64,000 bases of DNA. Source: a virus. Location: UHGV virus genome UHGV-1370141, one strand, 5' to 3'. The notes under the pieces are model-generated. The model was not told the DNA's origin. It ran no database searches and worked only from the letters and a program-made list of their open reading frames with translations. Of the stretch, positions 46,609 through 63,025 are shown in pieces (the first letter of the stretch is position 1; each line of letters opens with the position of its first letter). A program made the translations under genes and the position numbers.

Positions 46609-46666
46609 GAAAAAAAAACGTGCTACTCCTACCCTCTAAGAGGGTAGGAGGTTACTTATTTTTTTC
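46609..46666. terminator. Bidirectional rho-independent terminator (CTCCTACCCT-ctaag-AGGGTAGGAG; A-run 5', T-run 3')
   Basis: Perfect 10 bp stem between convergent genes ending at 46606 (+) and 46656 (-). Confidence 0.6.
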
Positions 46667-47918
46667 TTGCACGGAAACGATGCATTTCCAAATAGACTTT
46701 TTCCCAGGGACCGAAAGGCCCTACGATTGCCTGTGCATCGTTAATTTTCTTCTGGTTATACCAACGGGCCTCACGGAACACGTAGTTTTGACTGTCGAAT
46801 TCCGTGGTGTTAAATACCCATTCCCCTTCTTCCCACGTCGGCCAGTAACCAACGGTTTTACCGAAGCGGTTTAACAGATAACCCAGTTGTTTTTCCCCAT
46901 CAGGGTCATTAGGATCTTTAAGGTATAAACGTCCCCAGATAGCGTTGTGAGAAACCCCCACAACTTCTTCTTCCAGATACGGATTATCCACCGTAAAGAT
47001 AAACGACGACTCGTGGGTTAAAAGCGCCTTTAACGTTTCTGGGTTGCGGATACGCTGTACGCTGGTCGGGGATGACAGATCGCCAACGCCGATGCTATCC
47101 CAGTCGTAATAACGTCGGGTTTCTAGCACAGTACGCGCAACGTCAAAGTTCGGTAACGAGACCATAATGGCTTTGTCGGAGAAGTACCCAGTAACCGGTA
47201 ACCAGTGTATCAGACCCCCGATAACAAACCCCACGGTTTTACCCGTAATAGATTCCGGTAAAGAAATCATTAACGTGGAATAATAGTCACGGGTGGTGTC
47301 GAGTTTGTTTAAGGTCAAGTTAGCAATGGGGTACGTTTTAACATTCCCCAACTTACTAAAGACCATGCACCCGATATCCGGTGTCCCTGCACGACGTACT
47401 ATCTTACCCGCACCCGGTAAACGTACACCAACAGTATCCGACTGATGTGGTACCCATTGACCGTTGATGTTGTACAACACCCCGTTACGGTATTTGTCTT
47501 TCCATTTATCTTCGCAAACAATCACAACGTCGTCAGCATCGTCTATACTGAAATTTTGACTGTAGTGATAACCGGGAGGACACAGATAAGTTTCTACTGG
47601 AACATCAGCATTAATCGATTGGTAGTGTGCCCAATCAAACTCTAACGTCGGTAAACCGTCTTTCAACGCAGAGATAACCACACCGGCTTTTTCATTCAGC
47701 CAGTCTTGTAACGTATCGGTACGGTTTTGTAAGTCAGCGAGGTGATATTGGCTAATTAACGTATAGTCTTTACCAAGCGCACTCAGACCGACTTCGAAAA
47801 TATGGTAATCAGAACACAAGGTTTCTAAGGGTTGCGTGACGTCGATGGCTCCCCAGGTACGGGTCTCTCGAGAGAAGCCAAAAGCGCTGTCAGGCCGTAC
47901 TTGATAAGCAGTAGTCAC
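46656..47918 (-). CDS. Hypothetical protein (about 420 aa); start uncertain
   Basis: Listed ORF (46656..48134) would overlap the 5' end of the divergent fibre gene by about 150 nt; an in-frame GTG preceded by GAGGA gives a start at 47918. Confidence 0.4.
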   Translation of the reverse strand: MTTAYQVRPDSAFGFSRETRTWGAIDVTQPLETLCSDYHIFEVGLSALGKDYTLISQYHLADLQNRTDTLQDWLNEKAGVVISALKDGLPTLEFDWAHYQSINADVPVETYLCPPGYHYSQNFSIDDADDVVIVCEDKWKDKYRNGVLYNINGQWVPHQSDTVGVRLPGAGKIVRRAGTPDIGCMVFSKLGNVKTYPIANLTLNKLDTTRDYYSTLMISLPESITGKTVGFVIGGLIHWLPVTGYFSDKAIMVSLPNFDVARTVLETRRYYDWDSIGVGDLSSPTSVQRIRNPETLKALLTHESSFIFTVDNPYLEEEVVGVSHNAIWGRLYLKDPNDPDGEKQLGYLLNRFGKTVGYWPTWEEGEWVFNTTEFDSQNYVFREARWYNQKKINDAQAIVGPFGPWEKVYLEMHRFRARKK

Positions 47919-47985
47919 AGCTCTTTTCCTCAATAGATTCAAGTCATAGTATGAACTCGACGCCCACGGACTATAGGAGTAGATA

Positions 47986-50900
47986 ATGGCTGTCGTCCTA
48001 GACCCACACTTCAAAGAACCGGGGAATAAAATAACCGGTGAAGCGGTCGCCGTCATTGGTACGAAGTACCGAATGTTGGTACCTGCCCACGCCCCTTTTT
48101 TCACCACATCCCTGGTGGTCAAGAGCGGCGGCAAAATACTGACCTTAGGCGACGATTACGTTATTACACACCCGTACGAGACCGGTATGTTGCGCACAGC
48201 CTATCTCGTGCACGGGATGATTTGGATTGTTAACGACAAATACAAATCGAATTTCACGGTAGATTACCACGCCGTAGGTTGCGGTGAGGCAACCCAAGAA
48301 CAGATTACCGCAGAACGCGAACTCAATAAAGATAAATACCCGTCTGCGTGTCAATGGGATACCGTTATCGGCGACGTTTACTTTCCACCGGTCGACATTC
48401 AGTTCGACTGGGAAAACTGGAAAGGTGAACTGGAATTAATGCAGACCATTGCAGGCTTAGGTGATTCGTTAGGTAACGTGGTGAATCGGGTAGACCCGAT
48501 TGCACGTAACACGTTAGATATCGAGCATCGCGCTAATGGTACGGTTAGCACGTCTGAACAGTACGCAACGTACGACAACAAAGGTGGGTATACTTACAAT
48601 ACCGCTAAACGTCGTTTCTCCGTTACGTACAAAACCACCACGTTAAATGAATATTCCCTGTCGATGAAATACCGTATTCCGGCTATTTTTCCGAATATGG
48701 GGAGTATTAATCCGAACGAACAAATCGATTGGATGTTGTGCTATGCGAATGGTGGCGCAAGTATCCTTCGTCTCCAATTAAAACAACGTAAAATCAGCCT
48801 ACGACTGACGGTCGCGTTAGGCAGTGGTTCGACCGATTATGATTATACGTTAATCAACGGTTTGACCGATGACGAATTAAAAGGCGAATTAACGTTTAGC
48901 GTTGTCCGTCAACCGGGTAACGGTGTATACGTTATCGAGGTGACGACTAACAAACAGTCCATGGACTATACGTTTAACGTCGACACACCGCCAGACGAAT
49001 TCTCAGCAGGTTACAGCAAAACGGATGTTGCGAAGTGGCTGAAATACAAAACCAACGTTAACTTAAACTGGTGGGCGGCTGAAAACGATTACGCTCAATT
49101 CCTTGCGTTACCTGGTGCGCCAGAAGCAGACGTAAGTAACGACGTTTATCAGTTAATCGTTAAGTACCATCAGTTAGTAGAGCAACTCTATCGCAACGCA
49201 CCTGCACACGAACACGTTACACGTAAGGACAACCCGCACAGCGACACGTGGGGACCGATTCGTGCGTTAGAATTAAACGGCATTGCGTCCGACGCAGCGT
49301 TAACCTACGGGAAAACCAAGCGACAGTTAACGGACTACGTTAACGCTAAATACCCAACACAGGCAACGCTAACCACCCAGAGAAAACTGCTTCGAGAATC
49401 GGCGAGCAAGAACGTTAACGGCACGATTACAGCGCTCCCTGGCTTTACGTCATTTACTACTGAAGTCGACCCAGTGTCGATGTCGAAATACGTTAGTCGG
49501 CAATTTAGCGAATATTACGTTTCGAACGGAATTGGATACCACGGAGCACTTCGCTACGCTGGAACTAAAAACGGGTTCTCATGTTATTTTAACGGTGTTC
49601 CCGCTGATTTACAAGACATCGACTTTATTGTAACGGGTACAAGAGTTGCAGGCGATAATTCAGCGATCGGCGTGGCTCAGATGCGATTCTACGAGAATCC
49701 GGGTACCGAGTCCGGTAAGTATGTTGAGCTGGAAGGTTCGCTCTCCGGAGATCGCCTTTCCATCCAAGTATCGCTTGGCGGATATGGTGTCGGTACAGAC
49801 CCACAAGTCCGTTATATCTCCAAAGCACCTGATCCGGTGGTGCCTGCTGGCGATTTCACATTACGTTTCCAGATGAAACGAACCGGTAATCTTTTTGACG
49901 TTATCGTTACGGTGAACGGGAAAACCTACAGTGCGCGTGTCAATTTCGTCAATATGGATGCCGAGTTAGAAGCGCTGGAAAACCGTTATCACTTCAAGAG
50001 CTTTATTAATAACGTTGCAGATAGGGTCAGTATCCAATCTGCTCACAACAGAAACTACGTTACCATCAAAAAGGCTCCTGACGTTGTTGACGAAAGACGT
50101 TTAGGCGCTCAATTCGTTGTTGATCCGAAGTCCATTAAGTTTATCGGTCAAGGTTCTACCGATGTTCATGCGGGTAACAACCCTGTTACGTTACAGGCAG
50201 GCGATAACCAGCTTGTGCTATACCCCGATGACCGTGGACTGTTGTGGCGTGGTAAGAAACTCTTAGACCCCACTACGGTAGCGCCGTATTTGCCGGGTAA
50301 TACCGCAGGCGGTACAGGTCTGTTCTACGGTGCATCTACAGCTACAGTGGAACTTACTGGTAGCGGGATTAAAGCATCGCCGTTTGTCGCAACGTTTATC
50401 CTTCCGGTTGCCGAAGACGTCACGACGTTAGCCTGCTGGCAGTTAACGGATGAATTCGGTACGGCTGAAAACCTTGCAGCTACACCCGCGTTAATTGAAA
50501 AACTGGACGCAGAGTTTACCGGTAAGTTAGTTGCTGCCAAGTCGTACATCAACGACATGCAGCTTACCAGTTCGATTACTATCGACAAAATTACCTTTGG
50601 TTTAGGTAACGTTGCGAATACCCCGGACCTCGATTTGCCGATTTCTGTTGCACAACAGACTGAGTTAGACAAATACTCACCGAAGGTTCACCAACACCCG
50701 TCTTCTGTGTTCGGTGTTGAAAACGCAGACACCACGAAACGGGGTCTGATTAAATTCGGTCTGGAAGTGGATGATACCACTTTAGCACTCGATGGTAGTG
50801 TGGTGATGGCGCAGACTTCCCAGATTGAAAATTTGGAGAATACCGTCGGCGGGGTTGACTCGGGTGCGCGCGTTGACATTATTCGCTTTGGTAAGTCCGG

Positions 50901-52311
50901 TAACGACTTAATTGACGTTACGGTTAAAGACAATATCCTGGTGTCACTTCCTGCTTCCACGTATTTCGTTGGCGGCGAAACGTACGACGTGCCGTTGATG
51001 ACGGTTAACGTTACCGAACGTTTCCCGAACCCGAAAACAGTAATTTACGCAGGGATTTTTGTTGATATCGTTGACAACAAAGCGAAGTACATTATCCACG
51101 ACAGCTATAACCAAGCTGAGACGGATACCATGACGCGTGTGGGAAGACTCGTTGTTAATGATCTTTCCGAAGTGGATGTAGTGGAGTTGCGTAACGTGAC
51201 ACGGTTAGGCGATTTCCGTGAGCTGAAAGACCACGTCGCCAATGACAACGCACACATTCACCGCTCCGCGTCACGTGCAGTGCTGGGGTTAAGCAATTTA
51301 ACAGTAGGTGCGCCCTGCTGGGCTTCTGGACTTCAAGCGGTTGTGCGTGGCGAGGCAGATTGGCGCTATGTGGTTGGTGGTGGATATAAAGCACTCGATG
51401 GTGTGAAATACGACCAGCTTGCGTCGAAGTGGGTGTTTGATGCGAAAGGGGTAAGTGATAATGTTCACGGGTTTATCCACAACCTGTTCCCAGTATTTAA
51501 CAATGCGGGGATGCGAGTCAGTTGGGAAACCGAAAGCAACGCAAAAACCGGTACGGTGCTAGAAACCATCCTGGGTTGCTGGAAAAACACCGATGGCGAG
51601 TTTATGCGGTTGTCGTTACTTATCACCCGTGGTTACCGGTTAACTGACAGTAACGGTGAATATTGTTACGCGGGGTTCGGTTTGAACTTCAGTAACGGGA
51701 AATCGGTAGTGTTAGGTTTCACGCCAACGAAACGTGTTACAGCTGCACCATGGAGCACATTACAACCTGACGTAACGTTTAGTCACACCCGTGGTGCAAA
51801 CAACGCAATAACGTTTAATGCAACACTGACCTTAGCTGGTACTGCGTATACCATTGTGGTGTATTTGTCTGCGACGGATAAATACGTAAGCTGTACAGCA
51901 GCAGGGGGAACTACGCAGAAAATCTCACTGAGTGACCGTTTAACCGGGTTCAACCTCGCACCTATCGTTAACGATCCGTATACCCCTATTTACTACGGAT
52001 TAGGGGGACTTTATGAGGACGAAGTGCGTGCTAATATCCGTTCTACGGCAGACAGCATAATCGGGAACAAACTCTACGGTACGCTGTTGGATTATATCAG
52101 CAACTACTCCTCGTTAAATCGTGTACGCGTCGTGGAATTGGCCGGGACAAGCTCAGACCCTGAAACGCTTAATGCGCTAGTGGCGACTGAGTTTAATAAC
52201 AACCTGGCGGATTACGCTGCGTTACCGATACCTCCTTATCTTAACAAGGAGCGCGTAATGTCGTTTATCGACACCAACAATTTAGTGCAGGCGGTAATCA
52301 TTCGCGATTAA
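47986..52311 (+). CDS. Tail fibre/tailspike-like receptor-binding protein 1 (1441 aa)
   Basis: AGGAG SD; N-terminal anchor motif PAHAPFFTTSLVV...LGDDYVIT shared with the next three genes; very large T/N/G/V-rich beta-type protein. Confidence 0.6.
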   Translation: MAVVLDPHFKEPGNKITGEAVAVIGTKYRMLVPAHAPFFTTSLVVKSGGKILTLGDDYVITHPYETGMLRTAYLVHGMIWIVNDKYKSNFTVDYHAVGCGEATQEQITAERELNKDKYPSACQWDTVIGDVYFPPVDIQFDWENWKGELELMQTIAGLGDSLGNVVNRVDPIARNTLDIEHRANGTVSTSEQYATYDNKGGYTYNTAKRRFSVTYKTTTLNEYSLSMKYRIPAIFPNMGSINPNEQIDWMLCYANGGASILRLQLKQRKISLRLTVALGSGSTDYDYTLINGLTDDELKGELTFSVVRQPGNGVYVIEVTTNKQSMDYTFNVDTPPDEFSAGYSKTDVAKWLKYKTNVNLNWWAAENDYAQFLALPGAPEADVSNDVYQLIVKYHQLVEQLYRNAPAHEHVTRKDNPHSDTWGPIRALELNGIASDAALTYGKTKRQLTDYVNAKYPTQATLTTQRKLLRESASKNVNGTITALPGFTSFTTEVDPVSMSKYVSRQFSEYYVSNGIGYHGALRYAGTKNGFSCYFNGVPADLQDIDFIVTGTRVAGDNSAIGVAQMRFYENPGTESGKYVELEGSLSGDRLSIQVSLGGYGVGTDPQVRYISKAPDPVVPAGDFTLRFQMKRTGNLFDVIVTVNGKTYSARVNFVNMDAELEALENRYHFKSFINNVADRVSIQSAHNRNYVTIKKAPDVVDERRLGAQFVVDPKSIKFIGQGSTDVHAGNNPVTLQAGDNQLVLYPDDRGLLWRGKKLLDPTTVAPYLPGNTAGGTGLFYGASTATVELTGSGIKASPFVATFILPVAEDVTTLACWQLTDEFGTAENLAATPALIEKLDAEFTGKLVAAKSYINDMQLTSSITIDKITFGLGNVANTPDLDLPISVAQQTELDKYSPKVHQHPSSVFGVENADTTKRGLIKFGLEVDDTTLALDGSVVMAQTSQIENLENTVGGVDSGARVDIIRFGKSGNDLIDVTVKDNILVSLPASTYFVGGETYDVPLMTVNVTERFPNPKTVIYAGIFVDIVDNKAKYIIHDSYNQAETDTMTRVGRLVVNDLSEVDVVELRNVTRLGDFRELKDHVANDNAHIHRSASRAVLGLSNLTVGAPCWASGLQAVVRGEADWRYVVGGGYKALDGVKYDQLASKWVFDAKGVSDNVHGFIHNLFPVFNNAGMRVSWETESNAKTGTVLETILGCWKNTDGEFMRLSLLITRGYRLTDSNGEYCYAGFGLNFSNGKSVVLGFTPTKRVTAAPWSTLQPDVTFSHTRGANNAITFNATLTLAGTAYTIVVYLSATDKYVSCTAAGGTTQKISLSDRLTGFNLAPIVNDPYTPIYYGLGGLYEDEVRANIRSTADSIIGNKLYGTLLDYISNYSSLNRVRVVELAGTSSDPETLNALVATEFNNNLADYAALPIPPYLNKERVMSFIDTNNLVQAVIIRD

Positions 52312-52321
52312 GGAGAATTTT

Positions 52322-55300
52322 TTGATGAAAGCGTATCCTTACGATCCTCGGGGGACGAAAACCGAGAATCACTTCTTAGAGGAGCGTATCATCGGGTCAG
52401 AAAACAACAACGACCGGGTGGTGATTTTAGACCATCGCCCGTTCTTTGAAGACTTAGTCGTCAGACAACCAGGTTCAACCACCCCACTGAGCCGTGGGGT
52501 GGACTACGAACTGCAATATCAGCTGACGGAACTGGATGACTCGGTAGCAGCCAACGTGTATTGTGGGGTACACCTTATCAACCCATCCATTAAAGGTATT
52601 GTAACCTTTGAAGGACAAATGCTCGGCGGTACGTTCTACGACCCGTTCGTTGACATGCTCGACGAGTTGGTGAAATATTTGAATAACCCAGTCAGTGCAG
52701 ACTGGCTGTTGTTAGACGGTAGACCGTCATTATACCCAGCTACGCCTGCGGCAACGTCCTGGGCGGATTTGCTGAACAAAAAATACTTAGCGTCAGCGAT
52801 TCACGATATTGAGTTGAAAACCGATGACGCTAACCAGCTAATTAAAGATAAATTAGCCGAAGTTAAAGCGCTAGTGACTGCGTTGGGGAAAGAAATTGAA
52901 GCGTTTAACTACCCAGCACATATCGCCGCGACGAACCCGCACGAAACCACGAGCGCACAAATTAACGCCCATCCCGTTAACCTGAAAACACCTGACACCT
53001 TTATGGCGTACGGGTTAAAGTTGAAAGCGTTAACGGATGAACTGAAAGCGTTTCGTTTACCACAGTCAGTTATTGACACGTATATCTCCCACTGGATTTC
53101 TTCGGAAGTACGGGGCGTGTTTAACTGTACGGTGTCTGGAAACCGCGCACAATTCCGTTCGAAAAACGGTGAGTCAGAAATCATTTTTGCGAATGATGGC
53201 TTTACGTTAAAATCCAACGGTTCTGTGGTATTAGCGGTAGGGCATCTGGAAGGCACAGGTGCGGGGCGTTACATTAACTGGCGTGCGGGTAAAAACACGT
53301 TACGCATCGAGTCAACCGGTGACGCTTTAGGGATGAACAAACTCACCCTGAACGGTAACCCGTTGTTGACCACCACAGCGCTGATGGAGTATCAGCAAGA
53401 CCCTGATGCTGGCGGGAGTGGCGGTAGCGATCCTGATGACTCCAAAGTGTATATCGAAGGCCGTAACGGGATTAGTTTTACCGGTAAAGGTTCTCGTGCC
53501 GATCCCATCGTGGGGACTATCGACCCGACGAAAGCGACCACCGCTGAAAAAGGTGTTGTTAAGCTTAAAACCGGTAAAGGCACAGAAACGGTTGGGGTTG
53601 CTGCAACACCTGCGTCATTAACGCCGTATTCAACCGACTTATCAGGGTACGTGACTAAAACGACCATGATTAACGGTAAGCCGATGAACGACGGTTCCAG
53701 GACAATCACGAAAGCTGACCTGGGATTAGGGCAAGCGGATAACACCGCAGACCTTGACAAACCGTTGTCTACTGCACTGAATGCTTCGGTTAGTGGTTTA
53801 GCAGATGTTGGCCACCATCACGACTGGTCAGAGTTAGGCATTTATAAAGCCTCGCAGACGGTTTACGGTATCGGTCGTTACGCAACTAACCAGAATGGCT
53901 TAGTTGAAAACCGTGCAGTGGTACCGAACATCCTAAAAGAGCTTTCAGCACGTTTAGATGTGGTTGCTGCCGCAATTGCGAATGCGAAAGAAGGTACGGT
54001 AACTGATTTTGCTGCTGTGAAAGGTGCAGACTGGCGTTTTAATAGCCAGGGTACGGCAATCTCCGTTCAGGATTTGAAATATTTCTATTTGCTAAATGGT
54101 GAAAAGGCCGACGGTGTCGTTACCGGCGCGATTGACCTGCAAACCACCCCGATGTTTAACTGGTTCTCACCGAACAACCAGCTTGAGCTGACTTGGCCTA
54201 CGGGGAAAGTTAGTAGGGGTACTGGGATTAGTTGGGATGGAATTGTTGATCCTCCAACAATGGGGTTTCAGTCAGTTCCGGTAGGTAAAACCGCTATACA
54301 GATGGGTGACCAGTCAGTTGTTACGGTGCTGGCAAAAACACGGGTCAAAGCTTATCAGAATAGGCTGTTTGTTTACGCCGCTGGCGGTGGAATGATAACC
54401 GTTTATGTAAATGGTGTTGTGGCTGCTACCGGTGAATCTCCGTTGTTAATGAACTACACAACGTCGTCAGATGTTGAAAATTACACAATCGCTGTTAAAG
54501 CAGAATGTAGCGATACGGCTAAGTCCGCAGCGGTACAGTTTGAAGTTTACGATGGCGATTACCCTGTTTACTTCAGTGGCCCTGAAACACACGTAGAGCT
54601 TCTCCAGGAGTTTGTTACCACGCACGTAGGGATTCGTCACTATTTGTACGTTAACATGCTCACAGGCTCTCTATATTCGCGTGCTGAACCGATTCAGAGC
54701 ATCGCAGTTGATCCTGAACGTGGTTATATCGGTTACGTTGATATTGTTGCTGGTGAGAATTACGCGAATAAAACGGTAGGGTTCGAAACCACGTTTGATT
54801 TCGGGAAAAGTGCCGAGGTTAGTGAACACATCGACACGCGTAAAGCGCACGGACTCAGTTCTGTGGACTGGGCGTTAACGGATAACCCACGTTTGCCGTT
54901 ATTAAACCGTGCTATTGCCGAACCGAGAGCGTGTATCTTTAGGAAAGCGTTAGCAACCGGTACAGGCGATGTTTTCCATCTTGTCAGTCGTGGTCTTTAT
55001 ACTTACGCACACAACCAAAACGTGAAGTCCAGTCTTCAGTACGTTGTGATTCCTGAAGGTGCTACACCGTATTGCTGGTTTACACCGTTTAACCCGAAAG
55101 AAAACAACGCACCGACTTTCGAAGGTTCGTTTGCGTTTGACGTTGACGACGTCGGTGGGACGCAAGCCCTTGCTGCTGCGCCGGATTTGGTTCTATGCTC
55201 GTCAACGCAAGGGAGTAGCGTTAAACGTCGCTATCTGCGCATTGACCTAACTGCCAAAGCGTGTAAGCTGGGGATTGGTTCCCGTTCAGATTCTGCCGTT

Positions 55301-56506
55301 ACTGACATTCCGTTGGTAATGGAGGAGTCTGGGGAAACAGCGGTGAATGCAACGTTTAAGGACGTTTTGTTCAACGGTGAAGAAACGAATGCTGCGATTC
55401 TCGATTTGATTGGCTGGGGTGCCGCCCGAGATAAAATCTCTGCAAACCATGCACCTCGTGGGATGATTCGTTACCGTTATAACGTAAGTACGCGTGTGTT
55501 ACGTTTAGCGTTGTCGTTCTCGCAGTTTGGGACGACGACAGTTAAACAACGTCAGTTGGAAATTCAATTCCCGTTCGACTTAGTGGATTATTTCACCGGT
55601 GACGGAATAGGATTATCGTTTAAAGAACTGAGCGCGAAATGCCGAGTAACGATTAGCCATGCGTTGATTGATCCGGTTACGAACAACATCGACATTGATA
55701 AGTATCATTACTTACGTTCGTTGTTTGAGTCGTATTTGGATTCATCCGTTGGGTATTTGGCTGATAACAAAGACGCTGATTATAGTCAGTCTGTGATTGA
55801 CCCTGCGACTTATGAGATTAGTCAAAAATACCGTGCCACGGAGAGCATTGCCTTGCCAACTGGTCAGGGAAGTGTTGCGGTTTCTCACGATGGGCAGTTA
55901 CCTGCGCAGTTCTTTGACCGTAAACTGTCTCGTGGTGCGTTGATGGCGAAGAACAACGAACTGCACACTTCCTGGAACAATGTGTGGAGTACGACTAAGG
56001 TTGCTGCAAGTCGTTATCGTCACAAACTCATTCTCCGTTTTGCACAAGGTGTTGATAAACAGCAATACCGAGTTGCAAAAGTGACGGGAACGATAAAAAG
56101 TAACTGGCCAGGTAAAGTGATTATCGGCGACGCTGGGAAAGACCCATTCTTAGCGTCTACCGATAGCGCAGAGTTTGCTCTGTCAACCAGTTCTGATGCT
56201 GGTAAAGCGATTAGTATCACTGCCACTGACTTACGCGTGGGTCAGGACATCTATATTGTCTTAGACCCGCCAGGTAATAATCCAGAAGGTTATGAACTTA
56301 ACTTTACCTGTTCGTTAGACGTGACTGATGAGCAAAGCACTCGTCAGGATCAGCTTAATGCGCAGAGCTTCGAACTGCGTAGCGGTGAAAAGCAGTTCTT
56401 AATGGAGAAACGCAATCCGTACCATATCACGAGTAAAGCGTGGAAATGGATACTTTCTGTACTGAAACGAGAACTTAACGGGAAGCAGTTAGGGGATCGT
56501 ACTTAG
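52322..56506 (+). CDS. Tail fibre/tailspike-like receptor-binding protein 2 (1394 aa)
   Basis: GGAG SD; N-terminal HRPFFEDLVV...RGVDYELQ; GGSGGS linker; TAEKGVVKLKTGKG...TETVGVAATPASL repeat flavour seen in fibre proteins. Confidence 0.6.
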   Translation: MMKAYPYDPRGTKTENHFLEERIIGSENNNDRVVILDHRPFFEDLVVRQPGSTTPLSRGVDYELQYQLTELDDSVAANVYCGVHLINPSIKGIVTFEGQMLGGTFYDPFVDMLDELVKYLNNPVSADWLLLDGRPSLYPATPAATSWADLLNKKYLASAIHDIELKTDDANQLIKDKLAEVKALVTALGKEIEAFNYPAHIAATNPHETTSAQINAHPVNLKTPDTFMAYGLKLKALTDELKAFRLPQSVIDTYISHWISSEVRGVFNCTVSGNRAQFRSKNGESEIIFANDGFTLKSNGSVVLAVGHLEGTGAGRYINWRAGKNTLRIESTGDALGMNKLTLNGNPLLTTTALMEYQQDPDAGGSGGSDPDDSKVYIEGRNGISFTGKGSRADPIVGTIDPTKATTAEKGVVKLKTGKGTETVGVAATPASLTPYSTDLSGYVTKTTMINGKPMNDGSRTITKADLGLGQADNTADLDKPLSTALNASVSGLADVGHHHDWSELGIYKASQTVYGIGRYATNQNGLVENRAVVPNILKELSARLDVVAAAIANAKEGTVTDFAAVKGADWRFNSQGTAISVQDLKYFYLLNGEKADGVVTGAIDLQTTPMFNWFSPNNQLELTWPTGKVSRGTGISWDGIVDPPTMGFQSVPVGKTAIQMGDQSVVTVLAKTRVKAYQNRLFVYAAGGGMITVYVNGVVAATGESPLLMNYTTSSDVENYTIAVKAECSDTAKSAAVQFEVYDGDYPVYFSGPETHVELLQEFVTTHVGIRHYLYVNMLTGSLYSRAEPIQSIAVDPERGYIGYVDIVAGENYANKTVGFETTFDFGKSAEVSEHIDTRKAHGLSSVDWALTDNPRLPLLNRAIAEPRACIFRKALATGTGDVFHLVSRGLYTYAHNQNVKSSLQYVVIPEGATPYCWFTPFNPKENNAPTFEGSFAFDVDDVGGTQALAAAPDLVLCSSTQGSSVKRRYLRIDLTAKACKLGIGSRSDSAVTDIPLVMEESGETAVNATFKDVLFNGEETNAAILDLIGWGAARDKISANHAPRGMIRYRYNVSTRVLRLALSFSQFGTTTVKQRQLEIQFPFDLVDYFTGDGIGLSFKELSAKCRVTISHALIDPVTNNIDIDKYHYLRSLFESYLDSSVGYLADNKDADYSQSVIDPATYEISQKYRATESIALPTGQGSVAVSHDGQLPAQFFDRKLSRGALMAKNNELHTSWNNVWSTTKVAASRYRHKLILRFAQGVDKQQYRVAKVTGTIKSNWPGKVIIGDAGKDPFLASTDSAEFALSTSSDAGKAISITATDLRVGQDIYIVLDPPGNNPEGYELNFTCSLDVTDEQSTRQDQLNAQSFELRSGEKQFLMEKRNPYHITSKAWKWILSVLKRELNGKQLGDRT

Positions 56507-56581
56507 GACAGGCTGCCTGCGGGCAGTTGTGTGTCCGTAGGTAACCCCTCCCTGTAATGGGGAGGGGTATCCATTTTATTT
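56507..56581 (+). terminator. Rho-independent terminator (two hairpins; ACCCCTCCC-tgtaat-GGGGAGGGGT plus T-tract)
   Basis: Hairpin then ATCCATTTTATTT directly after the stop at 56506. Confidence 0.55.
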
Positions 56582-56601
56582 AAAAAGTAGGAGTCTTTAC
56601 G

Positions 56602-59600
56602 ATGCCGAGAGAAGACGCGGCGCAGTTTAACGGTACGCTAAGCACAGCAACGTACCCTAACCGATTTAATGTGGTCATTCCACCTGAAGGACCTTTTTAT
56701 CGTATCGGATTAAAACTCACAGTAGCCGACGATACCGCGCCTAACGGACGTCGTACTCTGATTGAGGGGTTGGACTACTATTTAGGCTATTACTTTAAAG
56801 AACTCGCAGAAGCTGAACAAGATCAGATTTATGGCGGGTTTATGTTGCTTACTGCAACAGAAATCGAATATGAGATTTTAGGGGTAGCACGTCAATACCG
56901 TGTGCCGCAATCTGAAATCGGGAAGTTCTTAGTTCGTACTGACCTGAAAGACCCACGTAACGTGGACTGGTCTGAACTAATGGCGTATGCGCCGGTTATT
57001 CAGCCTATCGACCCGCCTGCTAACTTAGAAGAAGCGATTCTGAGGGATGAGGTTGTTAAGGCGTTAGAAGACATTCGCAAGAAAATCATTAAGCGTTCTA
57101 CGGAATTAGATGCTGCGTTCAGTGAAGTCACTAACCTGATTTACGAGAACGGGAAAAAGGTTTTCGACGAAGAATTATACCAGCATCACCGTAACCCTAA
57201 CGCGCATCATTACACCACCGATGACATTGCCGCTCTCCCCGTATTAGGACGTGCTGTTGACGCTACAAAAGCGTTTGGGTTGACGATTGACGAGTTGGCT
57301 ACGCTGATGGGTTCAGCGGGTATTGAGCAATCGGACGTTGACCAGTTAATGGGTGAAGCCCTCGGCACCGTTTACGGTCGATGGGGCACCACGAACGGTA
57401 ATGAATTAACGTTTAAAACGTCAGGTGGCCACATCATCAGTATTCGTGGTGATAAGTGGTTAATTACCTCGCCACAACCGTTGGTGATTAAAGCAGACCA
57501 GGACAACAACGAATCGGGTTTAGCGGTTGAATTCAGTGCGGGTCTGAATACGCTTTGGGTTCACTCGGGGTCAGAACAGGATGTATTAGCGCCAGTTTAT
57601 AACTCCGTGTATCTGGTTACGCCAGAAATGGTGAACATGTACCTGACGTCAGTAACGTTGCTCGAAGCAAACGCATATTTCAAAGCGTCAGACACTGTAA
57701 AACCGCACGGTACCGCAAAACAGACTAACCCGGTTACGTTAAACGCGAATATTCCTACAGCGACCGAATCAGTTTATGGGTTGTTCTCGATTACGAATAT
57801 CTCCACGTCTGCGGCGTTAGGTACTGCTATCTCCCAGAAAGCCGTAACCGAACTAAAAGACCGTTTGGACCTGTACGTTGACGATGACTATACCGTTAAC
57901 GGTAAAGGGTTTGTTAAAACAGGTGACAATATGGTGTTAACCTTAACGAAAACCGATTTCGGTATCGATAGGATGGATAACACCACGCCAAGTGCTAAGC
58001 CGGTGACGAAAGCGTTAGCGAACGTGTTGAAAAACAAGAGTTTGAAGACGCACACCCACACTACTGCTGATTTGGATAACGTTCCAATTGGTAGTGCAAC
58101 GGTTGACGGTATCTTACAGCTGTGGGATGCGATTGACACCACTAACGATAAAGCTGTCACGTCACGTCAAGGCTGGTTGTTCGCAAAAGAGATTAAGAAA
58201 GTCTCTGATAAACTCAATACCATCTTACCGGCATGGACGGTAGGTGGTGCGAAGTTCGGTAACAAGAACTTCTTACCTATTCCAGCGTTAGGCAACTACG
58301 CAGGCTACACCAAAAACCAGTCCTACCAGAAAGGGATCGTTGGGTATCAGCAGGGTAAGGTTTATTCACTCCGTAACGGTTCTAACGGCGTTCCAGGTAC
58401 GGAAGCTATCTATTACGGCTATGCTGACATTAACACGTCAAACGCGTTTGTAAATCCGCAGCAAACCTCAGTGAAATATCACCCTGCCGGGATGAGTAAA
58501 TATCCTGGCGTGACCCTAAAAGCGATATTGATTGGTGGGCAGGAAGCGATTATTTGTCTGGGTTCTGACAATAACCGATATTTGGTGCTGTTCAATGGTT
58601 CGATGGACCACACTAAGCACACGGTGGTATGTCGTGTTACGATGCCTATGTACCGTAACGACAACCCCGGCGGTACTACGGAACAGACCTGGAATCCCCG
58701 GCCAGAAGCTGACGATGTTGTGTTAGTTGACGATCACGTTTATCTTCTCCGTTCTTCGGTAAGTAACATTGCTTATGGCGTGGCAGCATGGCGTTTACGT
58801 AAAGCCGATTTGACTACTAATACTGAGTTAGAGTTTGAACGCGTAACCCTAACCGGTGAAATGGGGCAATTCGGAGATAACCTCTGGTTACGATTTGGTC
58901 AGAAGACCGAAGAGTCGCAAACGGGTCAATTCTTTACATTTCTCACGCCGGAGGGTCGTGCTAAATGGACGATCGGACGTAGCTTTGTTCACGGTCCAGA
59001 ATGTAACCACGCCTGTGCTGTACGCGAAAGCGTGATTCGTGTGAACCATATGCCTACTGTGTGGTTTGCAGCGGCCGACGGTACGACGATTAATTTCCGT
59101 CAATGGGCAACAAGTTTTACAATCGATACGTTAACGGGAAAAGTTACGTTAGAAGGAGGCGAACGCTTCCCCATCAAGGCTGATGCTACTACACTCTCGT
59201 TCGCGGATGGTTCAACTGTAGAAACCAGTCGTAAGTGGGGTGGTGGTCTGGCAAACAACCGTTGTTTCGCGACATATGCTAAACCCAACGGTACAGGAAT
59301 GATGCTTTCCTGTTGGCAGATTAACGATGCGGACCAAATGCCTAATGTTTCTATTAAAGGAACACAAGGCAAAGAGCTTTTCGATTATCTGCGTTATGAT
59401 AACCCAAACAACACCTCGGGCGAAGGAACGTTTACCTGGGATAAAGGTCGCGGTTCTATTTATACCATCGGTCTTTCCCATCCGGTCGGCATTGGCGGTT
59501 CGAATAAGGTGTGGTTGTCTAATCCACGTAACCGTTACACCATCGAAGTAGAAGTTGATCCGAACAAACCTTACGATGTTCCAGGTTATGGCGGATACGG

Positions 59601-61785
59601 TCCGAACAACAACCGTCGTGAAGTCGATGCGACGCTTTACGAGCAGCTTAGCTGTATGGCTGCGTGCATGACTCCTGAGGAGCGTCACGGACAGTTAAAC
59701 GGTTGGTATTTGACCAAAGCAGAAACGTTCCCGTATCGCAACATCTACGGTAACTTCGCGTTGTCTTCCGAACGCTTAACGCTAGAAGAAGCCGATCGCC
59801 AGAAAATGATTCGGATGATCGTTGACGGTGCGCCATCTGGTCAAGCAAATGGTTACGCGAACGAACGTATTAGTGCTGCCCATCAAACCGGTAATGCATT
59901 GTTTGCTCTTTGGATGTTGGGTATCAACACCGTGTGCGAATTTGACTTGTTGCAAGTTTCGTGCATGAAAACCTCAAGTAACGGACGTCGAATTCTTGAC
60001 ATCTATTACTTCATGGTGAGTCCATCTAAAGAGAACGGCTACTTACGGTTCAACTCAGCCACCTTTAAGTTGGTGGACTGGTTCTTAGACCTCGATTATG
60101 GTTTAAGTTATCAGTCTCTGAGGGAAGAAGCGGGTAATAAAACGCGACGTGTAGGCCAGCCAATTTTTGCTTCTGCCGACGGTGTAAACTTCGGTCTATG
60201 GCTACCTTATACGCTGACAATACGGAATATCGGGGACCTAAATGCTTTGGGTTACGCTGCGAAGTACACCTTCGACCCTGGGTCGGGTTGGACTCGCGTT
60301 CCTGGTAAGTCACAGTTGCGTCAGATGGCCCCTGCTCATAATCCCGAATCAGGTTGCTACATGGGTGCGGGTAATTGGGACAAGATGGCGTTGATTTTCT
60401 CTAAAGCTGACCGTGTTTTCTGTTCAGGTAACGCGTATACAGCCGCAGAGTTCGTTAACGACACGACGTTCTCAACGGGAGGTCAGGCTGTTATTATTGC
60501 TGGTGTGGAAACAGCGGAAGGTTGGATTCTGTATTTGACAGAAGAAGTCAAATTAGATTTCGGTAGCAGCAGTTACACACTCCCAACGTGGTCTGTGGAT
60601 TTAAGCAGCGAGTTCCCGTCCAATCACGCTAACCAGACGTTCTACGTACACGCTGAGGTGTCGGGTTCTACCGCACAATACCGCATCGGTTTGGAGCAGT
60701 TAGCCGATACTTCAACAAGACTGTTCGTCGGGACAGTAACCACCGATTCCAGCCGTATTACTGATATCAGTATCGACAAAGTAAAACGCTTGGGTCGTGT
60801 AAAAGAGCTGGAAGACCACGCAGCAATTATCGACCAACACGATGTTGCAGCAGCGTTTGACAGAAAGACGGGTCCTCTATTAACGCTGGTTAACAAGCCC
60901 GTTAAAGCACCTACGGCGTCTGCGTCGAAAGGCGAAGGGTATGTTGACGGTCAGAAATGGGGTTCACTGTCTGGCATCACGACGCGTCCTAAGTTACCAA
61001 TTCAGGAAACGTATTCGGGTTATAAGAGTGTGGCCAGAGTAGCGTATGAGAACTGCGCCGACCAATTCTGGCAGAAAGCGGTAGCTGCTAACATTACGAC
61101 AGCCACTGCTTCTGAGAACTCGCAGGCAGCGTCTGCGAACATGAAATGGATAGGTGCGTATACGAAACCGACTACCGGAACGTATGCTTACTTAGCATTG
61201 AGTTTGCGCGTTCAAGTGCCAGGTAATCCAGGAACGGCGAATCGTGCTCTGAAGCTGAGACTTGCTGCACCAACCGGTATTGTTGAAGCTCGGTATGCAA
61301 TAAACCAGGCCGGTGGTACGATGAAAGAGCAGGACGTCACGTTAACCGCCAACCAGTACCTGGAAAAAGAGCACAGTGGGTTTAAACCTGCCGAGGAGGT
61401 TCGTGTTCATGTCACGTTCGTTATTCCGAAGAACGAATATGAAAGTTATCGTACGAAGTTTGGGGCGGTACAGTTGATTGACGTCGAGTCTGGTACTACA
61501 ATCAAACAGGCAGATATTGATACGCCGTTCTTTGTCTTTACGGACACTGAACTGTCTGCACAATCCGGTTTGGTGTATAAAGCGGTCAAGGGTCAGTTTG
61601 ACAATCTCCCGAGTGAACCTACACTCATTGTGCGAGATGGTCAGACCGGAACTAACCCACCGGTGAAATCGTCTTACGCTGACGGTACGCTAACGGTTTA
61701 CGTAGCGACCGCGTACGATGGTGTGAATCCGGCAGAAACTCGCGATATCGACAAACTCCAGTTCAATCTTATGTTTACATCTTAA
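56602..61785 (+). CDS. Tail fibre/tailspike-like receptor-binding protein 3 (1727 aa)
   Basis: AGGAG SD; N-terminal PEGPFYRIGLKL...EGLDYYLG anchor motif; very large. Confidence 0.6.
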   Translation: MPREDAAQFNGTLSTATYPNRFNVVIPPEGPFYRIGLKLTVADDTAPNGRRTLIEGLDYYLGYYFKELAEAEQDQIYGGFMLLTATEIEYEILGVARQYRVPQSEIGKFLVRTDLKDPRNVDWSELMAYAPVIQPIDPPANLEEAILRDEVVKALEDIRKKIIKRSTELDAAFSEVTNLIYENGKKVFDEELYQHHRNPNAHHYTTDDIAALPVLGRAVDATKAFGLTIDELATLMGSAGIEQSDVDQLMGEALGTVYGRWGTTNGNELTFKTSGGHIISIRGDKWLITSPQPLVIKADQDNNESGLAVEFSAGLNTLWVHSGSEQDVLAPVYNSVYLVTPEMVNMYLTSVTLLEANAYFKASDTVKPHGTAKQTNPVTLNANIPTATESVYGLFSITNISTSAALGTAISQKAVTELKDRLDLYVDDDYTVNGKGFVKTGDNMVLTLTKTDFGIDRMDNTTPSAKPVTKALANVLKNKSLKTHTHTTADLDNVPIGSATVDGILQLWDAIDTTNDKAVTSRQGWLFAKEIKKVSDKLNTILPAWTVGGAKFGNKNFLPIPALGNYAGYTKNQSYQKGIVGYQQGKVYSLRNGSNGVPGTEAIYYGYADINTSNAFVNPQQTSVKYHPAGMSKYPGVTLKAILIGGQEAIICLGSDNNRYLVLFNGSMDHTKHTVVCRVTMPMYRNDNPGGTTEQTWNPRPEADDVVLVDDHVYLLRSSVSNIAYGVAAWRLRKADLTTNTELEFERVTLTGEMGQFGDNLWLRFGQKTEESQTGQFFTFLTPEGRAKWTIGRSFVHGPECNHACAVRESVIRVNHMPTVWFAAADGTTINFRQWATSFTIDTLTGKVTLEGGERFPIKADATTLSFADGSTVETSRKWGGGLANNRCFATYAKPNGTGMMLSCWQINDADQMPNVSIKGTQGKELFDYLRYDNPNNTSGEGTFTWDKGRGSIYTIGLSHPVGIGGSNKVWLSNPRNRYTIEVEVDPNKPYDVPGYGGYGPNNNRREVDATLYEQLSCMAACMTPEERHGQLNGWYLTKAETFPYRNIYGNFALSSERLTLEEADRQKMIRMIVDGAPSGQANGYANERISAAHQTGNALFALWMLGINTVCEFDLLQVSCMKTSSNGRRILDIYYFMVSPSKENGYLRFNSATFKLVDWFLDLDYGLSYQSLREEAGNKTRRVGQPIFASADGVNFGLWLPYTLTIRNIGDLNALGYAAKYTFDPGSGWTRVPGKSQLRQMAPAHNPESGCYMGAGNWDKMALIFSKADRVFCSGNAYTAAEFVNDTTFSTGGQAVIIAGVETAEGWILYLTEEVKLDFGSSSYTLPTWSVDLSSEFPSNHANQTFYVHAEVSGSTAQYRIGLEQLADTSTRLFVGTVTTDSSRITDISIDKVKRLGRVKELEDHAAIIDQHDVAAAFDRKTGPLLTLVNKPVKAPTASASKGEGYVDGQKWGSLSGITTRPKLPIQETYSGYKSVARVAYENCADQFWQKAVAANITTATASENSQAASANMKWIGAYTKPTTGTYAYLALSLRVQVPGNPGTANRALKLRLAAPTGIVEARYAINQAGGTMKEQDVTLTANQYLEKEHSGFKPAEEVRVHVTFVIPKNEYESYRTKFGAVQLIDVESGTTIKQADIDTPFFVFTDTELSAQSGLVYKAVKGQFDNLPSEPTLIVRDGQTGTNPPVKSSYADGTLTVYVATAYDGVNPAETRDIDKLQFNLMFTS

Positions 61786-61819
61786 TGACTCGGGACAAGG
61801 ATGTCTCGAATAAAGGAGA

Positions 61820-63025
61820 GTGGCCATGGCCTCCATTGTTTATCAATATCCTTTAGATTTAACGGGCTCGCTAACGTCTAACGCTGTGGAGCGTCAGATT
61901 ACGTTAGGTACAGGTAAAGTAAACCGTGCTTTTGCTTTTCCTGACGGCCCGTTCTTTGCGGACACGTTCCGTTTACGTGTTGCTAACCGACCGGATGCAA
62001 CCTACGAACGTGGTACCGATTATGAGTTGATTTTTGCACACCCGACTTATGAAAAGCTGACTAAAAACCGCGAGATTGTTATGGCGGTGGTGGTCACTAA
62101 CACAGCGATTCCAACAGATATTACGGTATCTGCGCAGGTCGTTGGTGGACCACAGTCTGCGAACATCGTGGCTATCGAACAGGCGATTGCTGAATTAAAC
62201 CTCGATAACCGTACGGTTGCGTTTAAAGACCTGCGTAACGTACCAGATACATTCCCTTCTGCACCGACGTATAAAGACGTAGGTGACATCTACGGTTTTG
62301 AATATATCATTACCGTATTGGCGGGTATTAAAGATGCGATCAGTTCCGGTGACGCAGTACAGTTAGAGAACATTAAAGCGATTTTAGAAAGCCTGAAAAA
62401 TGACTTCTTAGACGCTTTAAATGCACACATTAACGCAACCGGTAACGTTCACCATCTTGATATTCATCAGGTTAACGGGTTAACAGAAACTGAAATCCGT
62501 GCGCTTATTCGTGACGTCCAGTCTGCCATCGACGCAACGATTACGGAAATCAATGCACTGAAGAAAGCGGACGAAGCTTTAGGTAAACGTATTGACGCTG
62601 TTGTCAACTCTCTGGAAGCGTGGAACGACCAACTTAACGTGGTTGCTCAAAACTACCAGAAAATGGCCTTAGCGTTGGCGAACCTGAACTCGTTAGTGTT
62701 ACAGCTGCAAAAGAGCATTAACGATCTGAACACGAAACTGAATCAGGTTATTCAGCGTGTTGATGCGTTAGAGCAACAGGGTCAAGAAACCGATCAGAAA
62801 ATCGATCAGCTACAACAAAACCTGGATGCGCTTAAACAGCAGGTTAACAATAACACGAACGCAATCAGTCAAGCGAACCAGAACCTACAAAACCACATTG
62901 CGGCAGATGACCCGCACACCGGTTATCTCCACAAGAGATACGGTGGTGTGGTTCAGGCCCCAGTACACGTTAACGCTAACCTGACGTCTCGTGATGACGT
63001 ACAGGCGGAAGCGGGTACGAAATAA
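61820..63025 (+). CDS. Fibrous protein 4 (401 aa) with shared N-terminal anchor and long coiled coil
   Basis: N-terminal FPDGPFFADTFRLRV...RGTDYELIF; residues about 230-350 are heptad-rich (LEAWNDQLNVVAQNYQKMALALANLNSLVLQLQKSINDLNTKLNQVIQRVDALEQQ). Confidence 0.55.
   Translation: MAMASIVYQYPLDLTGSLTSNAVERQITLGTGKVNRAFAFPDGPFFADTFRLRVANRPDATYERGTDYELIFAHPTYEKLTKNREIVMAVVVTNTAIPTDITVSAQVVGGPQSANIVAIEQAIAELNLDNRTVAFKDLRNVPDTFPSAPTYKDVGDIYGFEYIITVLAGIKDAISSGDAVQLENIKAILESLKNDFLDALNAHINATGNVHHLDIHQVNGLTETEIRALIRDVQSAIDATITEINALKKADEALGKRIDAVVNSLEAWNDQLNVVAQNYQKMALALANLNSLVLQLQKSINDLNTKLNQVIQRVDALEQQGQETDQKIDQLQQNLDALKQQVNNNTNAISQANQNLQNHIAADDPHTGYLHKRYGGVVQAPVHVNANLTSRDDVQAEAGTK

What the first reader, a model, noticed from the sequence alone, without database searches (positions are those of the whole stretch)
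47986..63025. Four receptor-binding proteins sharing an N-terminal P-F-F ... G-x-D-Y anchor motif
The four consecutive + strand genes (1441, 1394, 1727, 401 aa) begin with the same short motif architecture (PAHAPFFTTSLVV..LGDDYVIT; HRPFFEDLVV..RGVDYELQ; PEGPFYRIGLKL..EGLDYYLG; PDGPFFADTFRLRV..RGTDYELIF) and then diverge completely. Established knowledge: phages carrying several different fibres or tailspikes often attach them through a conserved N-terminal adaptor domain while the distal parts determine host range. This predicts a multi-receptor particle; the distal domains (possibly depolymerases) are the host-range determinants.
Basis: partly seen in the sequence, partly recalled or inferred. 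Interest (0 to 1): 0.5.

Follow-up and report, generated by a model that had tools for sequence, protein, structure and literature searches.

The report
Jumbo-phage baseplate fibre paralogs (phiKZ gp131 family)
The four genes are the known set of related baseplate-fibre proteins of SPN3US/phiKZ-type giant phages; they share a baseplate-docking N-terminal domain, so this is a correct but already documented feature in a previously unsequenced relative.

Summary
The four + strand ORFs and the motif are real. P[FY][FY]-x10-35-GxDY occurs exactly four times in the six-frame window, each at residue ~37-48 of these ORFs.

It is the core of a ~110-residue beta-sandwich plus helix/NPH module. This module is homologous to the N-terminus of phiKZ gp131/133/134/135: a family HMM gives 1e-30 to 1e-55 for phiKZ, 4e-22 for B, 7e-13 for A and 6e-3 for C, and B-C BLASTP is 2e-18.

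The genes are orthologs of SPN3US gp170/169/168/167 and Asesino gp190-187, in the same order. A phiKZ gp130 / SPN3US gp171 homolog lies divergently upstream.

- **Virion evidence (literature):** the SPN3US orthologs are non-head virion proteins. In phiKZ, six such N-domains form a candidate hetero-hexameric fibre base under gp130.
- **"Diverge completely" is wrong:** B and C are collinear for ~500 aa, A/B/C share a shaft module with an invariant HxH, and A and C share a further module.
- **D:** it is only the N-module plus a 140-residue coiled coil and is the most conserved member, so it is probably structural rather than receptor-binding.
- **C:** its distal part is predicted to contain a beta-propeller, not a beta-helix.
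- **Missing signatures:** no depolymerase or chaperone signature was found.

Verdict: new member of a known kind; low interest.

The parts
46656..47918 (-). Homolog of phiKZ gp130 / SPN3US gp171 (420 aa, GTG start). In phiKZ this outer-baseplate protein lies above the fibre-attachment sites.
   Evidence: BLASTP 80% and 77% identity to Asesino gp191 and SPN3US gp171, and 6e-11 to phiKZ gp130. PHROG 3337 at 1e-144. Start codon read. gp171 is an essential tail protein in SPN3US (PMC5105663).
47986..52311 (+). Paralog A (1441 aa), ortholog of SPN3US gp170 / Asesino gp190.
47998..48303 (+). A: gp131-like N-terminal beta-sandwich domain (aa 5-106), containing PFF...GDDY.
   Evidence: Family HMM 7e-13. 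hhalign to phiKZ gp131 residues 11-177, 90.5% probability. PHROG 2163 at 1.3e-16.
49165..49269 (+). A: helix plus NPH motif (aa 394-428). It is displaced about 200 aa downstream compared with B, C and D by an insertion after the beta-sandwich.
   Evidence: Second HMM stretch, hmm 184-217. The orthologs show the same displacement.
49510..50061 (+). A: lineage-specific insertion (aa ~509-692), absent from SPN3US gp170 and Asesino gp190.
   Evidence: Gapped blocks and split BLASTP alignments. No tblastn match in 50,697 phage records.
50158..50781 (+). A: shaft module shared with B and C (aa 725-932). It carries GLGNVxNT-D-x-KP-S and an invariant HxH.
   Evidence: hhalign A-B 95% and A-C 84%. Alignment A4.
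50887..51288 (+). A: module shared with C (aa 968-1101).
   Evidence: BLASTP 2e-7. hhalign 91.9%.
52325..56506 (+). Paralog B (1393 aa from the ATG), ortholog of SPN3US gp169 / Asesino gp189.
52331..52972 (+). B: N-terminal docking module (beta-sandwich plus helix/NPH, aa 4-217).
   Evidence: Family HMM 3.6e-22. hhalign B-D 97.3% and B to phiKZ gp131 95.2%.
53282..53881 (+). B: shared shaft module (aa 321-520).
54001..56400 (+). B: variable distal region. The most divergent segments against the 94%-identical relative are 54001-54600 and 55801-56400.
   Evidence: 80-86% nt identity there, against 98% proximally. Both pS and pN are raised.
56544..56568 (+). GC-rich hairpin (11-bp stem) in the B-C intergenic gap.
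   Evidence: Terminator-like sites in the region are not more frequent than in shuffles, so function is unproven.
56602..61785 (+). Paralog C (1727 aa), ortholog of SPN3US gp168 / Asesino gp188.
   Evidence: gp168 is a tail protein designated 'expected essential' in SPN3US (PMC5105663).
56668..57231 (+). C: N-terminal docking module (aa 23-210). It is the most diverged copy and lacks the leading YPxD..G..N segment.
57526..58146 (+). C: shared shaft module (aa 309-515).
58336..59238 (+). C: predicted beta-propeller region (aa ~579-879).
60469..60873 (+). C: module shared with A (aa 1290-1424).
61826..63025 (+). Paralog D (399 aa from the ATG), ortholog of SPN3US gp167 / Asesino gp187. Closest to phiKZ gp135.
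   Evidence: 77% and 76% aa identity. BLASTP to phiKZ gp135 7e-13. hhalign 98%.
61826..62521 (+). D: N-terminal docking module. Beta-sandwich aa ~10-110, helices 160-204, NPH-type loop.
   Evidence: AF2 pLDDT above 90 for residues 11-110. 1268 cluster representatives match it, and in the 150 best hits listed it lies at the protein N-terminus.
62486..62902 (+). D: single ~140-residue helix (aa 223-361), a coiled-coil rod. No distal globular domain follows.
   Evidence: AF2. Coiled-coil Pfam and PDB matches only.

Best explanation
The four genes encode the gp131-family baseplate-fibre paralogs of an SPN3US/Asesino-like (phiKZ-related) jumbo phage.

**Shown**
- Each protein starts with the same homologous module: a ~110-residue beta-sandwich carrying GPF[FY]...GxDY...VGG, then a helix and an NPH motif.
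- This module is homologous to the N-termini of phiKZ gp131/133/134/135.
- The genes sit in the conserved order next to a divergently transcribed homolog of phiKZ gp130 / SPN3US gp171.

**Inferred from phiKZ cryo-EM and SPN3US proteomics**
- The N-modules dock the proteins under the gp130-like protein on the outer baseplate.
- They probably dock several at a time, as six N-domains plus a six-helix bundle per socket. Different paralogs would then co-assemble rather than act as interchangeable independent fibres.
- A, B and C continue through a shared shaft module with an invariant HxH.
- They end in variable, recombining distal domains, including a predicted beta-propeller in C. These most likely bind host surface structures and set host range.
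- D is only the docking module plus a ~20-nm coiled coil and is highly conserved. It most likely serves as a structural partner or strut of the fibre base, not as a receptor-binding protein.
For: - **Homology to phiKZ.** Family HMM gives gp135 2.8e-55, gp134 1.2e-49, gp131 1.2e-41 and gp133 1.9e-30, with window B 3.6e-22, A 7e-13 and C 5.6e-3. hhalign of each family to the gp131 N-terminus gives 87-95% probability.
- **Orthology and synteny.** The genes match SPN3US gp170-167 and Asesino gp190-187, with the gp171/gp130 homolog upstream.
- **Copy number.** There are exactly four N-module copies in the window and in each relative locus examined.
- **Family size.** 1268 cluster representatives match the module. 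In the 150 best hits listed it lies at the N-terminus of proteins 166-1560 aa long.
- **Virion location of the orthologs.** SPN3US gp167, 169, 168, 170 and 171 have SC/M of 1.90, 1.41, 1.08, 1.00 and 0.74, and none is flagged as head. The 12-copy portal scores 0.93. gp168-170 were not found in a tailless mutant.
- **phiKZ structure.** Six gp131-like N-domains plus a six-helix bundle lie beneath gp130, giving 12 fibres. gp131-135 all lack Tn insertions.
- **Conservation gradient.** Proximal identity is 70-86% and distal identity 19-45% against SPN3US and Asesino. Against a 94%-identical relative, the first ~500 aa of B and C are 98-100% identical at protein level, while distal blocks fall to 84-90% with raised pS, indicating mosaic exchange.
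Against: - No experimental data exist for this phage. Virion location and docking are transferred from orthologs at 43-77% identity and from phiKZ at about 25% identity.
- The phiKZ hetero-hexamer is itself called a 'candidate' model. It comes from rigid-body fitting of AlphaFold models into ~4.5 A density.
- The paralog sets differ. phiKZ has one long and three ~460-aa members, while this phage has three long and one short, so stoichiometry cannot be copied across.
- The N-domain has no significant solved-structure match here (Foldseek best E 0.028).
- C's N-module match to the family HMM is weak on its own.
- The model of C's distal part has mean pLDDT of only 66. The distal folds of A and B were not modelled.
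- Which protein binds the receptor is unknown even in SPN3US.
Confidence: 0.7

Rival explanations
1. Four independent homotrimeric fibres or tailspikes each plug the same N-terminal adaptor into equivalent baseplate sites. Each recognises a different receptor, giving a multi-receptor particle with depolymerase-type distal domains.
For: - The N-module is shared and the distal parts diverge.
- The invariant HxH in the shaft module fits a trimeric fibre shaft. This rests on my recollection of HxH metal sites in T4 fibre trimers.
- D's coiled coil resembles trimeric coiled-coil fibres such as reovirus sigma-1 and P22 gp26 at profile level. That match may be purely compositional.
- SPN3US spectral counts of the four proteins are similar.
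Against: - D has no distal domain.
- The phiKZ sockets contain six N-domains assigned to different paralogs.
- All phiKZ paralogs lack Tn insertions, so they appear individually required.
- No beta-helix, pectate-lyase or S74 chaperone signature was found. No PDB profile hits were found for the distal parts.
- Only flagella are reported as a receptor for SPN3US.
Confidence: 0.2
2. The proteins are mainly architectural components of the enlarged outer baseplate and do not contact the host. Receptor binding would be done by other proteins encoded elsewhere, for example downstream genes with DUF4376, DUF7941 or DUF1353 domains.
For: - phiKZ gp131 was first located at the baseplate periphery.
- The SPFM study reports HHpred predictions of baseplate wedge proteins for two Seoulvirus virion structural proteins. 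I did not check whether these are gp167-170 orthologs.
- Additional fibre-associated domain families lie just downstream in the close relative L005.
Against: - The proximal-conserved, distal-variable gradient and the mosaic distal segments are the signature of host-interaction modules.
- A tail-fibre-type motif (GLGNVxNT..KP.S) and weak PHROG tail-fibre hits are present.
- C is predicted to carry a propeller fold of the kind found in lectins and glycosidases.
- The phiKZ atlas places the gp131 C-terminus at the distal fibre end.
Confidence: 0.08
3. The short motif is a chance resemblance among unrelated large proteins.
For: Several pairwise N-terminal BLASTP comparisons (A-B, A-C, A-D, C-D) are not significant on their own.
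Against: - Profile searches are significant for all four.
- The motif occurs only in these four ORFs, at the same position in each.
- The arrangement is conserved in relatives.
Confidence: 0.01

Closest known systems
phiKZ gp131-gp135 paralogous fibre proteins (Sycheva et al. 2012; phiKZ structural atlas, PMC13250141)
   Same: - Homologous N-terminal domain with the same GPF[FY]...GxDY...VGG signature.
- Tandem same-strand paralogs next to a divergent gp130 homolog.
- Divergent C-termini.
- A propeller-type distal domain is solved in gp131 and predicted here in C.
   Different: - phiKZ has one 771-aa and three ~460-aa members plus a 110-aa fragment (gp132). This phage has three very long members (1393-1727 aa) and one short coiled-coil member.
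- There is no sequence similarity beyond the N-module.
- The gp131 propeller was not among the top structural hits for C.
- Hexamer stoichiometry cannot be transferred.
SPN3US 'paralog family C' gp168/169/170 plus gp167 (Thomas et al. 2016, 2017), and Erwinia phage Asesino gp187-190
   Same: - One-to-one orthologs in the same order and orientation, with the same flanking genes.
- The orthologs are virion, non-head proteins.
   Different: - Amino-acid identity is only 43-77%. Nucleotide similarity is detectable over just 6% of the region.
- A carries a ~200-aa insertion absent from both orthologs.
- The 2017 paper lists only gp168-170 as family C. gp167/D clearly carries the same N-module.
Multi-tailspike or branched-fibre phages that share N-terminal anchor domains (e.g. 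CBA120 TSP1-4, G7C gp66/gp63.1, phiKp24/RaK2)
   Same: The general logic is the same: several host-recognition proteins with conserved proximal attachment parts and variable distal parts. This comparison is from my own knowledge. phiKp24 is cited.
   Different: - No sequence or profile link to those anchor domains was found.
- No beta-helix depolymerase domains were detected.
- Attachment here is to a phiKZ-type star-shaped outer baseplate, probably as mixed hexameric sockets.

Membership tests
phiKZ gp131-like fibre paralog family (= SPN3US paralog family C) | N-terminal domain homologous to the phiKZ gp131 N-terminus | tested here: met
   - Family HMM: phiKZ gp131/133/134/135 at 1e-30 to 1e-55; window B 3.6e-22, A 7e-13, C 5.6e-3, D 1.7e-85.
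- hhalign to the gp131 N-terminus: 87-95% for all four.
- BLASTP D-gp135: 7e-13.
phiKZ gp131-like fibre paralog family (= SPN3US paralog family C) | Several paralogs in tandem on one strand, adjacent to a divergent gp130/gp171 homolog | tested here: met
   Four tandem + strand genes, with the gp130 homolog at 46656-47918 on the - strand. The layout is the same in SPN3US, Asesino and phiKZ.
phiKZ gp131-like fibre paralog family (= SPN3US paralog family C) | Virion (tail/baseplate) location | not testable with these tools
   Known only for orthologs. [quoted passage not shown]
phiKZ gp131-like fibre paralog family (= SPN3US paralog family C) | Six N-domains plus a six-helix bundle form a mixed-paralog fibre base under gp130 | not testable with these tools
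   No multimer prediction is available. The phiKZ model itself is a candidate fit. The helix after the beta-sandwich is present in all four proteins.
phiKZ gp131-like fibre paralog family (= SPN3US paralog family C) | Divergent C-terminal part ending in a beta-propeller (as in the gp131 crystal structure) | tested here: inconclusive
- Its mean pLDDT is 66, and gp131 itself is not among the listed hits.
- A and B were not modelled. D has no distal domain.
Tailspike depolymerases (right-handed beta-helix, often with a C-terminal Peptidase_S74 intramolecular chaperone) | Beta-helix / pectate-lyase-type catalytic domain, or S74 chaperone domain | tested here: not met
   - No Pfam family at E<=0.1 for A, B or C.
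- PDB sequence and profile searches found nothing significant.
- The modelled part of C matches mainly propellers, with some beta-sandwich hits, and no beta-helix proteins among the top hits.
- The folds of A's and B's distal parts were not predicted.
T4-type tail fibres (gp12, gp34-37) | Sequence or profile similarity to T4 fibre families | tested here: not met
   No Pfam or PDB hits. Only a generic HxH and a GLGNVxNT..KP.S motif, plus weak PHROG 'tail fiber' hits (phrog_35419, 8e-6 to 7e-4).

The most novel reading that the evidence does not exclude
The three long paralogs may not form separate homotrimers. Instead they could co-assemble through their collinear proximal ~500 residues (N-module, helix, HxH shaft) into a heterotrimeric or otherwise mixed stalk. 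This stalk would share a six-domain socket with D. A single baseplate fibre would then branch into three different distal binding domains.

The ~200-aa insertion unique to A in this lineage could be a newly acquired binding module.

Rough support: the SPN3US spectral counts are compatible with about 12 copies each of gp168-170, since the 12-copy portal scores 0.93-1.29 against their 1.0-1.4. gp167 is somewhat more abundant.
Probability: 0.2. Interest if true: 0.55.

Novelty: new member of a known kind. Interest (0 to 1): 0.2.

Why it matters
For annotation, it lets 15 kb of 'hypothetical / virion structural' genes in SPN3US-like jumbo phages be labelled as gp131-family baseplate-fibre paralogs.

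- It defines the modules: docking, shaft and variable distal parts.
- It marks the gp167-type protein as a fourth family member, and probably a structural one.
- For host-range engineering, it identifies the distal blocks of B and C as the parts that vary between near-identical phages.

It does not reveal a new principle. The paralog family, its virion location and its N-terminal docking role are already published for SPN3US and phiKZ.

Tried and rejected
- **Internal duplication in A** (aa 170-400 against 495-705): Smith-Waterman score 29 against a shuffle mean of 32, z = -0.7. Rejected.
- **Origin of A's insertion:** tblastn against 50,697 phage records found nothing. The word-indexed protein search of A 110-720 returned only fragments and partial orthologs.
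- **PDB sequence searches** with each protein, and profile searches with the C family, the N-domain family, the shaft module and the B and A distal parts. Only coiled-coil matches to D's helix appeared.
- **Foldseek of the D model against PDB:** nothing significant. The best hits, at E 0.03-0.13, were small chains in podophage tail/fibre assemblies. These are a hint only, and the long helix probably degrades the search.
- **Pfam on whole proteins and on N-terminal segments:** no family for the N-module.
- **HMM built from D orthologs alone:** finds B (4e-13) but not A or C. A family-wide HMM was needed.
- **Sigma-70 promoter and terminator scan:** counts equal to shuffles.
- **tRNA scan:** none found.
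- **Similarity of distal parts to the phiKZ gp131 C-terminus, gp145 or gp146:** none by hhalign.
Full report
**1. Observation**

The region holds four consecutive + strand ORFs at the stated coordinates:
- A, 47986-52311, 1441 aa.
- B, 52322-56506.
- C, 56602-61785, 1727 aa.
- D, 61820-63025.

Their translations contain the quoted motifs. Gene calls in a 94%-identical relative indicate ATG starts for B at 52325 (1393 aa) and for D at 61826 (399 aa).

The pattern P[FY][FY]-x(10-35)-G-x-D-Y occurs exactly four times in all six-frame segments of the 64-kb window. Each occurrence is at residue 37-48 of one of these ORFs.

Pairwise BLASTP gives mixed results:
- B-C: 2e-18, over about 500 aa.
- B-D: 4e-7, over about 215 aa.
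- A-B, A-C, A-D and C-D N-termini: not significant.

Profiles are decisive:
- All four hit PHROG 2163 at their N-termini, E from 1e-16 to 1e-103.

So the N-terminal similarity is real homology. The statement that the proteins 'then diverge completely' is not correct:
- B and C are collinear to about residue 515.
- A, B and C share a ~200-aa shaft module (A 725-932, B 321-520, C 309-515). It carries GLGNVxNT-D-x-KP-S and an invariant HxH.
- A 968-1101 matches C 1290-1424.

**2. What it is**

The window comes from a jumbo phage related to Salmonella phage SPN3US (Seoulvirus) and Erwinia phage Asesino (Erskinevirus). Megablast finds only 77% identity over 6% of the region. At protein level, however, the four genes are one-to-one orthologs in the same order and orientation:

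| Window protein | SPN3US | Asesino |
|---|---|---|
| A | gp170 | gp190 |
| B | gp169 | gp189 |
| C | gp168 | gp188 |
| D | gp167 | gp187 |

The - strand ORF just upstream is listed from a spurious TTG that overlaps A. Its real GTG start is at 47918, giving 420 aa. It is 77-80% identical to SPN3US gp171 and Asesino gp191, and it is homologous to phiKZ gp130 (6e-11).

phiKZ has the same layout: gp130 on one strand, gp131-135 on the other. The phiKZ proteins match the family HMM at 1e-30 to 1e-55. Each of the four ortholog families aligns N-terminus to N-terminus with gp131 at 87-95% probability. The phiKZ gp131 N-terminus even shows the same letters: PFAAPFF...VEGVDY.

An exhaustive HMMER search found 1268 cluster representatives with this module. 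In the 150 best hits listed it lies at the N-terminus, in proteins of 166-1560 aa. This copy of Pfam has no model for it.

**3. Published knowledge about the relatives**

SPN3US:
- gp168/169/170 were named 'paralog family C'. They are described as baseplate or tail-fibre candidates similar to phiKZ gp131 and absent from a tailless mutant (PMC5694885).
- In that paper's supplementary table none of the five proteins is flagged as head:

| Protein | SC/M |
|---|---|
| gp167 | 1.90 |
| gp169 | 1.41 |
| gp168 | 1.08 |
| gp170 | 1.00 |
| gp171 | 0.74 |
| portal (12 copies) | 0.93 |

- gp171 is an essential tail protein. gp168 is a tail protein designated 'expected essential' (PMC5105663).
- SPN3US is reported to use flagella as its receptor (PMC11428620).

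phiKZ:
- The 2026 structural atlas shows 12 fibre-attachment sites beneath gp130.
[quoted passage not shown] This is interpreted as a candidate hetero-hexamer of gp131x3 plus gp133, gp134 and gp135 (PMC13250141).
- A transposon screen found no insertions in any of gp131-135 (PMC12676376).

**4. Anatomy and predicted structure**

AlphaFold2 of D, with a 105-sequence alignment, gives mean pLDDT 83.5. The model shows:
- a confident beta-sandwich at residues ~10-110;
- a less confident linker;
- helices at 160-204;
- the NPH loop;
- one uninterrupted helix at 223-361;
- a disordered tail.

D therefore has no distal globular domain. It is also the most conserved of the four: 77% aa identity to SPN3US, against 43-66% for A, 48-52% for B and 49-56% for C.

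In A-type proteins the helix/NPH element is pushed to residues 394-428 by an insertion after the beta-sandwich.

AlphaFold2 of C residues 540-1727 used only 15 sequences and gave mean pLDDT 66. It has a well-supported all-beta region at model residues 40-340. Structure searches of this model gave:
- Foldseek: agrees on the propellers, and also matches a CBM-like beta-sandwich.

No Pfam beta-helix, pectate-lyase or Peptidase_S74 signature is present. The PDB profile searches were negative.

**5. Variation**

Against SPN3US and Asesino, identity falls from 70-86% in the first 100 residues to 19-45% at the C-termini of A, B and C.

Against the close relative L005 (Logan run SRR29999939, 94% nt identity):
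- The first ~500 residues of B and C are 98-100% identical at protein level, with low pS.
- Distal blocks drop to 84-90% protein identity, with both pS (up to 0.58) and pN raised. These blocks include B aa 600-700 and 1200-1393 and C aa 700-900.
- pN/pS stays at or below 0.33.

This is the pattern of mosaic exchange of older alleles in the distal parts. It is typical of host-interaction modules.

**6. Mechanism proposed**

Shown:
- a shared homologous N-module;
- conserved synteny with the gp130 homolog;
- shared shaft modules;
- variable distal parts.

Inferred:
- The N-modules dock under the gp130-like protein on the outer baseplate, probably several paralogs per socket as in phiKZ.
- A, B and C present variable distal domains to the host surface.
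- D is a structural coiled-coil partner.

The phiKZ socket composition, the apparent requirement for every phiKZ paralog, and D's architecture all argue against that picture.

SPN3US spectral counts fit roughly 12-18 copies of each large paralog. They cannot discriminate between the models.

**7. Novelty and verdict**

The family, its paralogy, its virion location and the docking role of its N-terminus are all published. Three things are new here:
- the member itself, from an unsequenced lineage at 43-77% aa identity to known phages;
- the explicit inclusion of the gp167-type protein in the family, with a module map;
- a ~200-aa insertion in A with no match in the phage collection.

Interest is low (0.2). 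The most novel reading not excluded is a mixed, branched fibre built from A, B and C together with D. I give it a probability of about 0.2.

Noticed in passing
window 49510-50061 (A aa ~509-692): A carries a ~200-residue insertion absent from the SPN3US gp170 and Asesino gp190 orthologs. It has no tblastn match in 50,697 phage records and is not an internal duplication. It may be a lineage-specific added domain.
   Followed up: partly
window 46656-48134 (- strand): The mechanical ORF list starts this gene at a TTG that overlaps gene A by 149 nt. Orthologs show the real start is GTG at 47918 (420 aa), leaving a 67-bp divergent intergenic region before A. The gene is the phiKZ gp130 / SPN3US gp171 homolog.
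   Followed up: yes
window 56544-56568, 46626-46650, 46316-46335: These are GC-rich perfect hairpins (8-11-bp stems) in intergenic gaps, including the B-C gap. They may be terminators or processing sites. Terminator-like sites overall are no more frequent than in shuffles.
   Followed up: no
window 50158-50781, 53282-53881, 57526-58146: The shaft module shared by A, B and C has an invariant HxH in all nine sequences aligned. It may be a metal site on a trimer axis, as in other phage fibres. That comparison is from memory and was not tested.
   Followed up: partly
window 42362-44948 (- strand ORFs of 383, 179 and 279 aa): Three sizeable ORFs just upstream of the baseplate genes have no PHROG match at E<=1e-5.
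   Followed up: no
window 16-2676 and 34790-37312: The window opens inside a very large tail protein with a transglycosylase region (PHROG 3201/4067; cf. phiKZ gp181, annotated in the record as a tail-associated endolysin). It also encodes an SbcC-like nuclease subunit.
   Followed up: no
window 63303-64000; L005 11478-21200: The 94%-identical relative stops aligning with the window at 63302, just after gene D, so the two phages differ in what follows. In the relative, genes with DUF4376, three DUF7941, DUF1353 and a GH108 endolysin lie downstream. These may include further fibre or assembly genes beyond the window's end.
   Followed up: no
window 45232-46197 (+): This is a 321-aa 'baseplate assembly protein' (PHROG 3216, 1e-112). 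It lies in the same relative position as similarly annotated genes in Asesino and SPN3US, so the fibre cluster sits within a baseplate gene neighbourhood.
   Followed up: partly
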